A stretch of DNA of 64,000 nt from an uncultured Pseudomonadota bacterium (lineage in GTDB: Bacteria > Pseudomonadota > Alphaproteobacteria > RF32 > CAG-239), in assembly GCA_949300375.1 (NCBI GenBank), contig CASGEB010000007.1, positions 7,439 to 71,438 on the forward strand, given 5' to 3'. Both the position numbers and the translations under genes were made by a program. Shown here in pieces: positions 41,882 through 44,561 of the stretch (position 1 is the stretch's first letter; each line of letters starts with the position of its first letter). Under the pieces are notes generated by a model, which was not told the DNA's origin, did not search any database, and saw nothing but the letters and a program-made list of their open reading frames with translations.

Positions 41882-43624
41882 ATGGCTGAAGATAATAAAG
41901 ATCAATATGTTGTTTTAGCAAGAAAATACCGTCCGCAGAGTTTTGACGACCTGCTCGGGCAGGATGCGCTTGTGCAGACCCTTACCAACGCCATTCAAAA
42001 CAACCGTCTGCACCATGCTTATATGCTGACGGGAATCCGAGGCGTCGGAAAAACAACAACAGCCAGAATCATTGCCAAAGCATTGAACTGCACCGGTCCG
42101 GACGGTAAAGGCGGCCCGACGGTTCATCCCTGCGGCGTGTGCGAAAACTGCAAAGCAATCGCCGCCGACCGGCATATTGACGTTATGGAACTTGATGCCG
42201 CTTCCCGTACCGGCGTGGACGACATTCGCGAAATTCTTGACGGCGTACGTTATAAACCAACCAACGCTCGTTATAAAATATATATCATCGACGAAGTTCA
42301 TATGCTTTCAAAAAACGCATTCAATGCCTTATTGAAGACTTTGGAAGAGCCGCCGTCGCATGTTAAATTTATTTTTGCCACGACCGAAATCCGCAAAGTT
42401 CCGGTTACCGTACTTTCCCGCTGCCAGCGCTTTGATTTGCAACGACTGACGATTGACACGCTGTTTAATCATTTTAAAAATATTATCGGAAAAGAAGGCC
42501 TGCAGGCGGAAGACGAAGCCTTAAAAATCATTGCCAAAGCGGCCGATGGTTCCTGCCGAGACGGCTTGTCGCTGCTTGACCAGGCTATTTCTCTGAGTGC
42601 CGGCGGTATAGTCAAGACCGATATTGTCAAAAATATGATCGGCCTGGCCGACAGAAATCAGACGTTTGAACTTTTTGAACAATTGGCAGAAGGCAAAACC
42701 AAAGATATGCTGGAGAATTTGCAGGAACAATACCGCAACGGCGCCAATCCGGTTACAATTTTGCAAGACCTTGTCAATATAACTCATATGATTGCCAAAA
42801 CAAAAATTATTCCGGCCGCACTGAACGGTTCTGACCTCTCGGAAAGCGAAAAAGAGCTTTGTACAAAGCTCGGCCCGAAAATCCCGATTGCCGTGCTGTC
42901 AAAAATCTGGCAAATGCTGCTGAAAGGAATCGCCGAACTGTCTGTTGCTCCGGTACAGATTGACGCCGTGGAAATGATTTTAATCCGGATTGCTTACGCG
43001 GCCGGCCTACCAACGCCTTATGAACTTTTAAATGACGTAAAAAAAAACTCTAGCCTAGCCACTCCGCTTATTATGCCGGAAAAAAAAAGTGCTGACGACA
43101 TCTTAAAAGCCGTCGGCAGCGGAAAAAAAATAAGCCCGGTGCTGATTGATGCCTCAAATGAGGTTCCGACCGGGGATTTTCTGACTTTTTCTTCTCCCGA
43201 GCAACTTGTCGATTATCTGGAAAACAACAAAAAAATGCTGTTGGCTTACAGCTTGAAAAATGATGTTTCCATCTGCGAATTTCGCGACGGCTATATTAAA
43301 ATGACGCTGGACAAGAAAGCGGATACCGATTTTATTATGACTCTGCACAAAATGCTGCTTGAAGTTACAGGTAAACAATGGAAAATCGACTCGCAGCACG
43401 GCGAACTGGGCGTTACTTTGGCAGCAAAAGAACGCGCCAAAGACGAAGAGGCCAAAAAAGACATTATGGAATATCCTCTGGTCAAGGCGATTATGGCGGA
43501 ATTTAAAGGCGCCAGAATCGAGACCATGACCAGAAACATTATAGAAAACGAGCAAAATTCGTTATTAAACAGCTTTGATGACGAACTCGGCGAAAATGAA
43601 AATTATACCAATGATGAGGAGTAA
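41882..43624 (+). CDS. dnaX: DNA polymerase III subunits tau/gamma
   Basis: ARKYRPQSFDDLLGQ, GIRGVGKTT and IDEVHML motifs. ATG 41882 (MAEDNKDQY) is preferred because the track start overlaps ffs. Confidence 0.92.
   Translation: MAEDNKDQYVVLARKYRPQSFDDLLGQDALVQTLTNAIQNNRLHHAYMLTGIRGVGKTTTARIIAKALNCTGPDGKGGPTVHPCGVCENCKAIAADRHIDVMELDAASRTGVDDIREILDGVRYKPTNARYKIYIIDEVHMLSKNAFNALLKTLEEPPSHVKFIFATTEIRKVPVTVLSRCQRFDLQRLTIDTLFNHFKNIIGKEGLQAEDEALKIIAKAADGSCRDGLSLLDQAISLSAGGIVKTDIVKNMIGLADRNQTFELFEQLAEGKTKDMLENLQEQYRNGANPVTILQDLVNITHMIAKTKIIPAALNGSDLSESEKELCTKLGPKIPIAVLSKIWQMLLKGIAELSVAPVQIDAVEMILIRIAYAAGLPTPYELLNDVKKNSSLATPLIMPEKKSADDILKAVGSGKKISPVLIDASNEVPTGDFLTFSSPEQLVDYLENNKKMLLAYSLKNDVSICEFRDGYIKMTLDKKADTDFIMTLHKMLLEVTGKQWKIDSQHGELGVTLAAKERAKDEEAKKDIMEYPLVKAIMAEFKGARIETMTRNIIENEQNSLLNSFDDELGENENYTNDEE
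43039..43053 (+). other. candidate slippage site 1 in dnaX: A9 run with TAG two codons into the -1 frame
   Basis: Zero frame is GTA AAA AAA AAC TCT AGC CTA. The -1 frame reads AAA CTC TAG (43051-43053). The +1 frame reads ACT CTA GCC TAG (43056-43058). Confidence 0.4.
43080..43095 (+). other. candidate slippage site 2 in dnaX: A9 run with TGA in the -1 frame, followed by a hairpin
   Basis: Zero frame is GAA AAA AAA AGT GCT GAC. The -1 frame reads AAG TGC TGA (43093-43095). GCTGACGAC...GTCGGCAGC (one mismatch) starts 3 nt after the run. Confidence 0.4.
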
Positions 43625-43633
43625 CAAAAAACA

Positions 43634-43954
43634 ATGATGAATATTCAGAGAATTATGAAACAGGCTCAGGCCATGCAGAAAAAAATGGAAGAAATGCAGG
43701 AAAAGCTTGCCCAGGAAGAATGCGAAGGGTCTTCCGGCGGCGGCATGGTCAAAGTTACGCTGAACGGCAAATTCGATATGAAGAAGATTGTTATTGACAA
43801 GTCGTTGGTGAATCCGGAAGAGACCGATATATTGGAAGATTTGATTACCGCCGCTTATAATGACGCCAAAAACAAAGTTGACGCCAATATGCAAAAGGGC
43901 GTTTCCGACGTAACCGGCGGTTTGAACCTCGGCGGGCTGAAACTGCCGTTCTAG
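43634..43954 (+). CDS. ybaB: nucleoid-associated protein YbaB/EbfC
   Basis: 106 aa. MQKKMEEMQ...GGGMVKVTLNG pattern. Located between dnaX and recR. Confidence 0.88.
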   Translation: MMNIQRIMKQAQAMQKKMEEMQEKLAQEECEGSSGGGMVKVTLNGKFDMKKIVIDKSLVNPEETDILEDLITAAYNDAKNKVDANMQKGVSDVTGGLNLGGLKLPF

Positions 43955-43964
43955 GAGAGTTCTG

Positions 43965-44561
43965 TTGGCCGGACAAGATATTGAAAAATTGATAAAACTT
44001 GTATCTAAACTGCCATCTTTGGGGACACGTTCCGCCCGCAGGATTGTTTTGCAGCTGCTCAAAAAGAAAGAAACACTGTTTCTGCCCTTAATCGAATCTA
44101 TGCAGCAGGTGGCAGAAAATATCAAAACCTGCGAAATCTGCGGTAATTATGATACAACGTCGCCCTGCTCTATTTGTTCATCCCAAGTGCGGGAGAATCA
44201 TATTTTATGCGTTGTGCAAGACGTGGCCGATTTATGGGCGATGGAGAGGGTTTCTTTTTTCAAAGGAAAATACCACGTTCTGGGCGGTATTCTCTCTGCT
44301 ATCGACGGAATAACGCCCGAGGATTTGAATATTGAGCCGCTGTTAAAGCGAATCGATGAAAAAGGCATTAAAGAAATCATTTTGGCACTGCCGGCAACGG
44401 TAGACGGACAGATTACCGCAAATTACATCAATTCCCGCCTGAAAAATCGTGAAGATATTAAAGTCTCAACTCTGGCACAGGGGATTCCGATGGGCGCGGA
44501 ACTTGACTATATGGATGAAGGCACTATTCAACTGGCTCTTAATGCCCGTAAACTTTTGTAA
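43965..44561 (+). CDS. recR: recombination protein RecR
   Basis: 198 aa. LPSLGTRSARR HhH, C4 zinc finger CEICGNY...CSIC, Toprim. TTG start with an AGGAGAG SD. Confidence 0.93.
   Translation: MAGQDIEKLIKLVSKLPSLGTRSARRIVLQLLKKKETLFLPLIESMQQVAENIKTCEICGNYDTTSPCSICSSQVRENHILCVVQDVADLWAMERVSFFKGKYHVLGGILSAIDGITPEDLNIEPLLKRIDEKGIKEIILALPATVDGQITANYINSRLKNREDIKVSTLAQGIPMGAELDYMDEGTIQLALNARKLL

What the first reader, a model, noticed from the sequence alone, without database searches (positions are those of the whole stretch)
43039..43130. Three A8-A9 homopolymers in dnaX at the domain III/IV boundary, with stops immediately in the alternative frames
**Seen**
- A9 at 43039-43047: the -1 frame reaches TAG at 43051, and the +1 frame reaches TAG at 43056.
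- A9 at 43080-43088: the -1 frame reaches TGA at 43093. An imperfect 9-bp hairpin GCTGACGAC/GTCGGCAGC starts 3 nt downstream.
- A8 at 43123-43130: the +1 frame reaches TAA at 43131.
- All lie around codons 386-417 of a 580-codon gene. That is just past the clamp-loader core.
- A shift at either A9 run would yield a product of about 390-405 aa.

**Established**
- E. coli makes gamma by -1 ribosomal frameshifting on A AAA AAG followed by a nearby stop.
- Thermus thermophilus makes it by transcriptional slippage on an A run.
- Caulobacter instead trims tau by ClpXP.

**Inference**
- This organism may generate a gamma-like short DnaX by slippage. That would be notable for an alphaproteobacterium.
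Basis: partly seen in the sequence, partly recalled or inferred. Interest (0 to 1): 0.6.

Follow-up and report, generated by a model that had tools for sequence, protein, structure and literature searches.

The report
Conserved poly-A slippage site in dnaX
A run of nine A's just after the clamp-loader core of the replication gene dnaX is kept base-for-base, with stop codons in both shifted frames, across a whole clade of uncultured gut Alphaproteobacteria, so it most likely lets RNA polymerase (or the ribosome) slip to make a short gamma-like protein beside full-length tau, as shown in Thermus but apparently unreported in this class.

Summary

**Run 1 (A9, 43039-43047)** is under strong selection at the nucleotide level.
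- 42 related dnaX sequences (at least 18 lineages with unalignable linkers) all read [G/A]TA AAA AAA AAC TCT A[G/A]Y YTA [G/A].
- That includes 33 of 33 hits to a pattern that allowed every synonymous codon.
- The stops in the -1 and +1 frames switch between TAG and TAA but are never lost.
- Synonymous conservation peaks here: 0.93 against a gene mean of 0.50.
- In 420 kb of these genomes, 58 of 59 A/T runs of 9 or more lie in dnaX.
- No Shine-Dalgarno-like motif or conserved stem-loop flanks the site.

This points to Thermus-type transcriptional slippage rather than E. coli-type frameshifting. The predicted product is about 390 aa (43 kDa), against tau at 580 aa (64 kDa).

**Runs 2 and 3** are conserved only in the window's subclade. 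Similar extra runs recur in other lineages, so they are probably auxiliary sites.

**A second clade**, GC-rich and including cultured Hyphococcus and Marinicaulis, has an A9 at the same codon position. The two clades are not sisters.

No RNA or protein evidence could be obtained. Verdict: a well-supported new member of a known kind.

The parts
41882..43624 (+). dnaX CDS. It encodes tau, 580 aa and 64.4 kDa, in a single open frame.
   Evidence: ORF list. Pfam hits: DNA_pol3_delta2, ATPase lid, domain III (aa 245-384) and PF12362 (aa 438-547). The N-terminus at ATG 41882 agrees with 18 homologs.
43034..43058 (+). Conserved nucleotide block GAC GTA AAA AAA AAC TCT AGC CTA G. This is the core recoding cassette.
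   Evidence: Identical codon choice in 9 of 9 relatives and in 33 of 33 hits to a degenerate pattern. It is the synonymous-conservation peak: 0.934 against a mean of 0.502 (sd 0.10), top of 305 windows. Probability from codon usage is 6.8e-4 per lineage.
43039..43047 (+). Run 1: A9, the primary slippage site, starting at the third base of codon 386.
   Evidence: The length is exactly 9 in all 42 sequences of the gut clade. A GC-rich clade has an A9 at the homologous position and in the same phase.
43051..43053 (+). TAG stop in the -1 frame. It is read after +1 A or a -1 ribosomal shift and gives ...VKKKL (390 aa, 43.0 kDa).
   Evidence: It is TAG or TAA in all relatives, covarying with the Ser/Asn codon (AGY/AAY) after an invariant TCT.
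43056..43058 (+). TAG stop in the +1 frame. It is read after -1 A or +2 A and gives ...VKKTLA (391 aa) or ...VKKKTLA (392 aa).
   Evidence: The Leu codon is always YTA (11% of Leu codons in this genome) and the next codon always starts with G or A, in 42 of 42 sequences.
43080..43088 (+). Run 2: A9 (GAA AAA AAA AGT), a probable auxiliary slippage site. Stops: -1 frame TGA at 43093-43095, +1 frame TAA at 43104-43106.
   Evidence: It is a conserved island GAAAAAAAAA in an otherwise divergent linker in the window, L102, L081 and L082. Analogous runs occur at +11 to +36 codons in five other lineages and are absent in about ten.
43091..43120 (+). Imperfect hairpin after run 2. It is probably incidental.
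   Evidence: -11.6 kcal/mol, z = -1.6. It is retained only in the near-identical L102, not in L081 or L082.
43123..43130 (+). Run 3: A8 (GGA AAA AAA ATA), a weaker auxiliary site. Stops: +1 frame TAA at 43131-43133, -1 frame TGA at 43147-43149.
   Evidence: The run is A9 (GAA AAA AAA AT) in L081 and L082, and A8 in the window and L102.
43193..43522 (+). Tau-specific C-terminal domain (PF12362/DUF3646). All slipped products lack it.
   Evidence: Pfam E = 4.4e-23, aa 438-547.
43634..44561 (+). ybaB (43634-43954) and recR (43965-44561), the conserved downstream context.
   Evidence: Pfam. The same synteny is seen in relatives.

Best explanation
Run 1 is a programmed recoding site that lets one dnaX gene make two proteins.

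- **Templated product.** Transcripts with the templated A9 (or A9 plus or minus 3n) give full-length tau, 580 aa.
- **Slipped products.** RNA polymerase slips on the nine-base rA:dT hybrid and makes a share of transcripts with A10, A11 or A8. Normal translation of these ends 2-3 codons after the run at the conserved off-frame stops. The products are gamma-like proteins of 390-392 aa (about 43 kDa): domains I-III without the tau C-terminal domain.
- **Ribosomal contribution.** The in-frame heptamer A_AAA_AAA / A_AAA_AAC may add some -1 ribosomal frameshifting. That would yield the same ...VKKKL product.
- **Runs 2 and 3.** They probably act the same way on transcripts that passed run 1 in frame. 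This would raise the gamma share and add isoforms of about 404-422 aa.

Shown: the sequence features, their conservation and the lack of frameshift stimulators. Inferred: the slippage itself, its efficiency and the existence of the short protein.
For: 1. **Exact conservation at synonymous sites.** A9 plus stops in both non-zero frames is fixed in 9 of 9 relatives at 70-98% protein identity. It is also fixed in 33 of 33 metagenome loci found with a pattern that allowed all synonymous codons.
2. **The codons used are rare ones.** GTA is 10% of Val, TCT 18% of Ser and YTA 11% of Leu. That gives P = 6.8e-4 per lineage.
3. **Both stops vary in form but persist.** Each switches between TAG and TAA and is never lost.
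4. **Synonymous conservation peaks here.** 0.934 against 0.502 +/- 0.10. The protein becomes unalignable immediately afterwards.
5. **A genome-wide cut-off at nine.** 58 of 59 A/T runs of 9 or more lie in dnaX, while 65 of 70 runs of exactly 8 lie outside it. This fits the nine-base threshold of selection in Baranov et al. 2005.
6. **AAG is never used,** although GTA AAA AAG would create the optimal E. coli heptamer in frame.
7. **No frameshift stimulators.** No SD-like motif in 18 of 18 lineages and no consistent flanking structure: mean z -0.10 downstream and +0.38 upstream.
8. **The architecture matches Thermus.** A9, a single tau ORF and nearby stops in both non-zero frames, as described in PMC5009743 and PMC1088944.
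9. **KK is absent elsewhere.** Other alphaproteobacteria do not have KK at this position. AT-rich outgroups L049, L063, L071 and L075 lack the run.
10. **A second clade has it too.** A GC-rich clade (56-62% GC) has an A9 at the same codon position and phase, with stops close in both shifted frames.
11. **The run is stable in DNA.** Contigs at 14-38x run straight through it. Strain variants down to 92% nt identity show no indels.
Against: - There is no direct evidence. Only assembled contigs of RNA runs were available.
- Four low-depth RNA/cDNA contigs span the A9 at the templated length.
- None shows A8 or A10.
- One RNA contig ends exactly on the last A of the run. That is only suggestive.
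- The slippage threshold of this organism's RNA polymerase is unknown.
- An in-frame X_XXY_YYZ heptamer is present, so ribosomal frameshifting cannot be excluded.
- Runs 2 and 3 are missing in about ten lineages, so they are not essential.
Confidence: 0.72

Rival explanations
1. Purely ribosomal -1 programmed frameshifting on A_AAA_AAA / A_AAA_AAC, of the E. coli dnaX type. The transcript is homogeneous and ribosomes slip back one base, ending at the -1 stop.
For: - The heptamer is in the correct zero-frame register.
- The -1 stop follows two codons later.
- One Hyphococcus sequence (L124) reads TTA AAA AAA AAG, which is the E. coli heptamer in frame.
Against: - No SD-like stimulator and no conserved downstream stem-loop in 18 lineages.
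- In E. coli, A_AAA_AAA and A_AAA_AAC are much less shift-prone than A_AAA_AAG (PMC5009743). Yet AAG is never used in 42 gut-clade sequences.
- Frameshifting alone does not explain the strictly conserved +1-frame stop (rare YTA Leu codon plus a following purine).
- It also does not explain why the run is extended to exactly nine by a rare GTA/ATA/TTA codon.
Confidence: 0.13
2. No decoding function. The runs are Lys-Lys codons in a genome that prefers AAA, and the conservation reflects a protein-level KKNS motif at the end of domain III.
For: - AAA is 83% of Lys codons. AAA-AAA is the commonest KK codon pair outside dnaX (70 of 107).
- The peptide KKNS[S/N]L is invariant.
Against: - Synonymous positions of Val, Asn, Ser and Leu are fixed on rare codons.
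- The Ser/Asn alternation is exactly the one that keeps TAG or TAA in the -1 frame.
- Other alphaproteobacteria have no KK at this position.
- A9 occurs at the same spot in genomes of 56-62% GC.
- Runs of 9 or more are otherwise almost absent from these genomes.
Confidence: 0.04
3. The conserved block is a nucleic-acid signal of another kind, for example an internal regulatory site for ybaB-recR or a protein- or sRNA-binding site. The off-frame stops would be incidental.
For: Conservation at the nucleotide level does not by itself name a function.
Against: - The variation allowed (TAG/TAA in two frames) is what stop-codon preservation predicts, not a fixed binding motif.
- The GC-rich clade shares only the A9 and the close off-frame stops, not the flanking sequence.
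- No conserved structure was found.
Confidence: 0.04
4. The runs are DNA-level hypermutable tracts, that is, contingency or phase variation of dnaX by replication slippage.
For: - Homopolymers also slip in replication.
- One contig at 1.6x coverage (L108) has A11 instead of A10 at a second-site run.
Against: - Tau is essential in the bacteria studied, so heritable truncation would be lethal.
- All 42 assemblies and all 78 members of the protein cluster carry the intact frame.
- DNA contigs at 14-38x show no length variants.
Confidence: 0.02

Closest known systems
Thermus thermophilus dnaX: programmed transcriptional slippage at A9 (Larsen et al. 2000, as described in PMC5009743 and PMC1088944)
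   Same: - A9 in the sense strand.
- Tau is encoded in one uninterrupted ORF.
- Stops lie close by in both non-zero frames.
- The short product lacks the tau C-terminal region.
- No ribosomal stimulators are needed.
   Different: - The phylum differs: Alphaproteobacteria, not Deinococcota.
- The site sits directly at the end of domain III (codon 386 of 580). [quoted passage not shown]
- Up to three tandem runs are present here.
- Slippage has not been shown experimentally here.
E. coli dnaX -1 programmed ribosomal frameshift (A_AAA_AAG, upstream SD-like element, downstream stem-loop)
   Same: - The same gene.
- The same outcome: gamma consisting of domains I-III.
- An in-frame all-A heptamer.
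- A -1 stop within two codons.
   Different: - No SD-like element and no conserved stem-loop.
- AAG is never used.
- The +1-frame stop is also conserved.
- The run length is fixed at nine.
Two-ORF ('reversed') dnaX genes with poly-A junctions (Antonov et al. 2013, PMC3711429)
   Same: A poly-A tract of 7-10 at the gamma/tau junction, with transcriptional slippage proposed.
   Different: - In those genes the zero frame stops and tau needs the slip.
- Here tau is templated and gamma needs the slip.
- L065, seen in passing, does look like the two-ORF type.
Caulobacter crescentus DnaX processing by ClpXP (Vass and Chien 2013; preprint 10.1101/2022.11.10.516041)
   Same: The same bacterial class and the same end result: tau plus shorter gamma forms. 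More than one gamma form is made.
   Different: - That route is post-translational proteolysis, not recoding.
- The sampled Caulobacterales dnaX (L053) has no A run at this position (LKRDSG).
- L053 is nevertheless the sister of the A9-bearing Hyphococcus clade in the DnaX tree.

Membership tests
Thermus-type programmed transcriptional slippage in dnaX | A homopolymeric A run of about 9 in the sense strand of dnaX, downstream of domain III | tested here: met
   A9 at 43039-43047, two codons after the end of Pfam domain III.
Thermus-type programmed transcriptional slippage in dnaX | Full-length tau is encoded by the templated single ORF | tested here: met
   A 580-aa ORF with PF12362 at aa 438-547. 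All relatives have the same arrangement.
Thermus-type programmed transcriptional slippage in dnaX | Stop codons close by in both non-zero frames | tested here: met
   TAG at 43051 (-1 frame) and TAG at 43056 (+1 frame). Both are kept as TAG or TAA in 42 of 42 sequences.
Thermus-type programmed transcriptional slippage in dnaX | The mRNA population varies in the number of A's while the DNA is uniform | tested here: inconclusive
   - Only contigs of RNA runs were available.
- Four span the A9 at the templated length.
- One ends on the last A of the run.
- None shows A8 or A10.
- DNA contigs are uniform.
Thermus-type programmed transcriptional slippage in dnaX | Two protein products, tau and a truncated gamma | not testable with these tools
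   No proteomic data. Predicted sizes are 64.4 kDa and 42.9-43.2 kDa.
E. coli-type -1 programmed ribosomal frameshift in dnaX | A slippery heptamer X_XXY_YYZ in the zero frame | tested here: met
   A_AAA_AAA and A_AAA_AAC are in register. The E. coli heptamer A_AAA_AAG is not used.
E. coli-type -1 programmed ribosomal frameshift in dnaX | An upstream Shine-Dalgarno-like stimulator | tested here: not met
   No AGGA, GGAG, GAGG, AGGG or GGGA within 20 nt upstream in 18 of 18 lineages.
E. coli-type -1 programmed ribosomal frameshift in dnaX | A downstream stem-loop stimulator | tested here: not met
   The 45 nt downstream of run 1 has a mean z of -0.10 over 18 lineages. The hairpin after run 2 has z = -1.6 and is not conserved.
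Two-ORF dnaX (tau requires recoding) | The zero frame terminates at or just after the poly-A tract, and the tau C-terminus lies in another frame | tested here: not met
   The zero frame stays open to codon 580.
Caulobacter-type ClpXP processing of DnaX | A ClpXP recognition element and partial proteolysis of tau | not tested
   No sequence definition of the degron was available to search for. The route cannot be excluded as an additional one.

The most novel reading that the evidence does not exclude
Making gamma by slippage on an A9 placed exactly ten residues after the LPTP motif at the end of domain III may have arisen at least twice in Alphaproteobacteria. One origin would be the uncultured gut clade. 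The other would be the GC-rich Hyphococcus/Marinicaulis clade, which is sister to Caulobacterales-like lineages that lack the run, in an order whose model species uses proteolysis instead. In the gut clade the device may have been multiplied into tandem arrays of up to three slippage sites. Such arrays would set the gamma:tau ratio and produce a ladder of gamma isoforms. This would make the need for gamma, rather than any one mechanism, the conserved trait, and would give cultured strains in which to test it.
Probability: 0.3. Interest if true: 0.65.

Novelty: new member of a known kind. Interest (0 to 1): 0.5.

Why it matters
Why bacteria keep a short gamma form of DnaX has been an open question for more than 30 years. 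Three unrelated ways of making it are known.

- **A new class for the Thermus-type device.** In Alphaproteobacteria the only documented route is ClpXP proteolysis in Caulobacter. This finding suggests the Thermus-type device is also used there.
- **Very strong comparative support.** The selection is visible at single synonymous bases and in two off-frame stops.
- **Possible repeated origin.** The site appears in two non-sister clades at the same codon, which argues that gamma itself is what is selected.
- **Annotation.** Public records call these genes plain "gamma/tau" with no recoding.
- **Testability.** Hyphococcus flavus and Marinicaulis aureus are cultured and carry the site, so ordinary RNA and protein assays could settle the matter.

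Tried and rejected
No whole-genome count of A runs, no tRNA-Lys census and no genome-based taxonomy could be made. I substituted 420 kb of fetched loci.
- Larsen et al. 2000 (PMC26496) is not held. The Thermus details come from two reviews.

**RNA evidence**
- The window's own "RNA" runs X21-X23 look like DNA, with contigs up to 80 kb, and are held only as contigs.
- Genuine RNA libraries that contain the L083 relative were also held only as contigs, at 2-6x depth.
- Minority A-length variants therefore cannot be seen.

**Ideas tested and dropped**
- The hairpin after run 2 is a frameshift stimulator: rejected. z = -1.6, only about 3 nt of spacer, and not conserved.
- An upstream nascent-RNA hairpin stimulates slippage: no signal, mean z +0.38.
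- The runs are a by-product of AT-richness: rejected by the codon-usage calculation, by AT-rich outgroups without the run and by the GC-rich clade with it.

**Limits of the searches**
- Close relatives had to be reached through the protein collection.
- The window holds no tRNA-Lys gene.
Full report
**Observation**

The window (44% GC) carries dnaX at 41882-43624 on the + strand, followed by ybaB and recR.

- **Run 1.** A9 at 43039-43047 in GTA AAA AAA AAC. The -1 frame gives KKKL then TAG at 43051. The +1 frame gives KKTLA then TAG at 43056.
- **Run 2.** A9 at 43080-43088 in GAA AAA AAA AGT. The -1 frame gives KKKC then TGA at 43093.
- **Run 3.** A8 at 43123-43130 in GGA AAA AAA ATA. The +1 frame reaches TAA at 43131.

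Pfam domain III ends at residue 384, and the tau-specific C-terminal domain PF12362 covers residues 438-547. The runs therefore open the linker between the clamp-loader core and the tau-only part. They are the only A/T runs of 9 or more in the 64-kb window. Three runs of 8 or more within 92 nt is expected about once per thousand such windows.

**Who carries it**

The organism is an uncultured gut alphaproteobacterium.
- The stretch is found in chicken, bird and other gut metagenomes.
- Public records name the protein only [quoted passage not shown].
- The nearest species representatives found in the genome collection are only about 45% identical.
- The large protein collection holds many relatives at 68-98% identity.

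**Conservation of run 1**

In a protein alignment of 19 homologs, LPTPxELLND[V/I]KKNS[S/N]L is invariant and the sequences become unalignable directly after it. Of the 120 best homologs, 118 have the exact motif.

I fetched DNA for eight relatives at 70-80% protein identity, with locus GC of 38-48%. All read [G/A]TA AAA AAA AAC TCT A[G/A]Y YTA [G/A]. That means:
- The run is always nine A's.
- Lys is always AAA and Asn is always AAC.
- Ser is always TCT, so its T plus the next AG or AA forms the -1 stop.
- Leu is always YTA followed by a purine, which forms the +1 stop.

Both stops alternate between TAG and TAA but are never lost. A 7-codon window on the site has 0.934 identical codons among same-residue pairs. 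The gene mean is 0.502 (sd 0.10), and this window is the highest of 305.

To avoid selecting for the run, I scanned the metagenome contigs with a pattern encoding PTPxExLND[V/I]KKN[S][S/N]L with all synonymous choices open. It found 33 loci, mostly from human gut, with at least 12 unrelated linker sequences. All 33 use the identical codons.

From this genome's codon usage (GTA 10% of Val, TCT 18% of Ser, TTA+CTA 11% of Leu, AAA 83% of Lys), the chance of that choice is 6.8e-4 per independent lineage.

Strain variants down to 92% nucleotide identity keep all three runs without indels.

**Genome background**

The background was counted over 419.5 kb: the window plus 41 related loci.
- There are 59 A/T runs of 9 or more. 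58 are inside dnaX, and the other lies 48 nt past its end in one contig.
- Of 70 runs of exactly 8, 65 are outside dnaX.

That sharp cut-off matches the nine-base threshold at which Baranov et al. 2005 saw selection against slippage-prone runs in many bacterial genomes. It implies that runs of nine are costly in these organisms except in dnaX.

**Mechanism**

Known routes to gamma are as follows.
- -1 ribosomal frameshifting in E. coli on A_AAA_AAG, with an upstream SD-like element and a downstream stem-loop.
- Transcriptional slippage on A9 in Thermus thermophilus, with nearby stops in both non-zero frames.
- ClpXP proteolysis in Caulobacter.
- A two-ORF variant in which tau needs the slip.

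Here the anatomy is that of Thermus. In 18 lineages there is no SD-like motif within 20 nt upstream. There is also no consistent structure downstream (mean z -0.10) or upstream (mean z +0.38).

A single synonymous change (AAA to AAG) would create the optimal E. coli heptamer in frame, yet it never occurs in 42 sequences. The run is instead stretched to nine by a rare Val codon. The conserved +1-frame stop has no role in a pure -1 frameshift. It is needed if transcripts gain two A's or lose one.

I therefore favour transcriptional slippage. Some ribosomal -1 shifting on the in-frame A_AAA_AAA / A_AAA_AAC remains possible and would give the same ...VKKKL product.

Predicted products:

| Event | Length | Mass | C-terminus |
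|---|---|---|---|
| Templated (tau) | 580 aa | 64.4 kDa | full length |
| +1 A | 390 aa | 43.0 kDa | ...VKKKL |
| +2 A | 392 aa | 43.2 kDa | ...VKKKTLA |
| -1 A | 391 aa | 43.1 kDa | ...VKKTLA |
| +3 A | 581 aa | 64.5 kDa | tau with one extra Lys |

**Runs 2 and 3**

Within the window's subclade (window, L102, L081, L082) they are conserved islands, GAAAAAAAAA and CGRAAAAAAAAT, in an otherwise divergent linker.

Elsewhere, an extra GAA AAA AAA A run (A9 or A10, always in the same phase) recurs at +11 to +36 codons in five other lineages. Off-frame stops follow it, always within 5 codons after +1 A and usually within 3 codons after -1 A (16 and 40 codons in two lineages). About ten lineages have none.

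They look like repeatedly gained auxiliary slippage sites that would raise the gamma share and add isoforms of about 404-422 aa. They are not essential. I put this reading at about 50%.

The hairpin after run 2 (-11.6 kcal/mol, z = -1.6) is not conserved.

**Beyond the gut clade**

Most alphaproteobacterial dnaX genes sampled are GC-rich and have no A run. At the homologous position (+10 to +13 residues from LPTP) they have variable residues, not KK. AT-rich outgroups (L049, L063, L071, L075) also lack the run.

The Marinicaulis MAG L058 does have TTA AAA AAA AAC at that exact position. Its relatives include the cultured Hyphococcus flavus and Marinicaulis aureus.
- 93 of 120 relatives carry [L/I]KK[N/K] there.
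- In four further loci of 57-62% GC, the DNA is [T/A]TA AAA AAA AA[C/G/T]: nine A's in the same phase.
- A stop follows 1-2 codons after +1 A and 5-16 codons after -1 A.
- It is the only A run of 9 or more in each 22-kb locus.

In a DnaX domain I-III tree, each A9 clade is monophyletic (support 1.0 and 0.99) and the two are not sisters. The Hyphococcus clade is sister to a Caulobacterales MAG that lacks the run. This suggests two origins, or many losses. A single-gene tree cannot settle which.

**Direct evidence sought**

The RNA-labelled runs holding the window's stretch are held only as contigs and look like DNA.

For the relative L083, genuine RNA libraries exist but again only as contigs at 2-6x depth.
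- Four contigs span the A9 at the templated length.
- One ends exactly on the last A of the run.
- None shows A8 or A10.
- DNA-like runs at 14-38x pass straight through.

This shows that the run is stable in DNA and that templated transcripts exist. It says nothing about minority slipped transcripts.

**Earlier notes of this scan**

Other agents reached similar readings for related alphaproteobacterial dnaX genes, and for A9 sites in other phyla. None reported RNA evidence. I treat these as agreement, not as support. The claims I rely on were tested here.

**Literature**

I found no report of dnaX slippage or frameshifting in Alphaproteobacteria. Baranov et al. 2005 note that truncating slippage of the Thermus type is hard to find by their comparative method and was not surveyed.

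**Verdict**

- This is a new member of a known kind (Thermus-type dnaX slippage) in a class where only proteolysis was known.
- Two extra points of interest are the tandem auxiliary sites and the apparently independent occurrence in a GC-rich clade with cultured members.

**Tools unavailable**

- PMC26496 is not held.

Noticed in passing
L065:3790-3830 and downstream: In an AT-rich MAG labelled Paracoccaceae LRMED-264, the dnaX zero frame stops two codons after an A12 run (aa 444-448). The tau C-terminal domain continues in the -1 frame. This is either the two-ORF 'reversed' arrangement, where tau needs slippage, or a homopolymer assembly error. A second A9 lies further on in that -1 frame.
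   Followed up: partly
L108 (human gut contig, coverage 1.6), second dnaX run: This contig has A11 where its near-identical relatives L083, L107 and L116 have A10. That breaks the frame (EKKK**). It is either a sequencing error at very low coverage or a real DNA-level length variant.
   Followed up: no
L124:11188-11200 (Hyphococcus sp.): The site reads TTA AAA AAA AAG. It is therefore both an A9 run and the in-frame E. coli-type heptamer A_AAA_AAG. This lineage could use either mechanism or both.
   Followed up: no
L083:11226-11250 (also L107, L116): The second run in this lineage is followed by the same peptide as the first site (EKKNSNL against VKKNS[S/N]L), with stops 1 and 3 codons away. 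It looks like a duplicate or convergent copy of the primary cassette inside the linker.
   Followed up: partly
window and L081-L121 (419.5 kb): There is a sharp cut-off in homopolymer length. 65 A/T runs of exactly 8 lie outside dnaX, but only one run of 9 or more does. This suggests genome-wide selection against nine-base runs in this clade.
   Followed up: yes
L083:11155-11163 in RNA run X24: The single RNA contig covering the upstream part of dnaX ends exactly on the last A of the A9. An assembly graph would branch there if transcripts carried both A9 and A10. Depth is only about 4x, so this is anecdotal.
   Followed up: partly
L071 and L075 (Pelagibacteraceae and Rickettsiales MAGs): Their dnaX ORFs are only 417-423 aa. 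A short tail after domain III keeps a ...FPG.K[IV] motif near the C-terminus but lacks most of the PF12362 domain. These lineages seem to have a naturally short DnaX.
   Followed up: no
window:41852-41881: The longest dnaX ORF starts at TTG 41852. Homolog N-termini (MAE[ED]N...) indicate that the real start is ATG 41882.
   Followed up: yes
P0093 and P0096 (gut-clade homologs): These are the two of 120 homologs that lack the exact motif. P0093 has KKNFNL, which could still keep a -1 stop if Phe is encoded TTT. P0096 has VKFNSS and is a singleton contig, possibly a sequencing error. Their DNA was not fetched.
   Followed up: no
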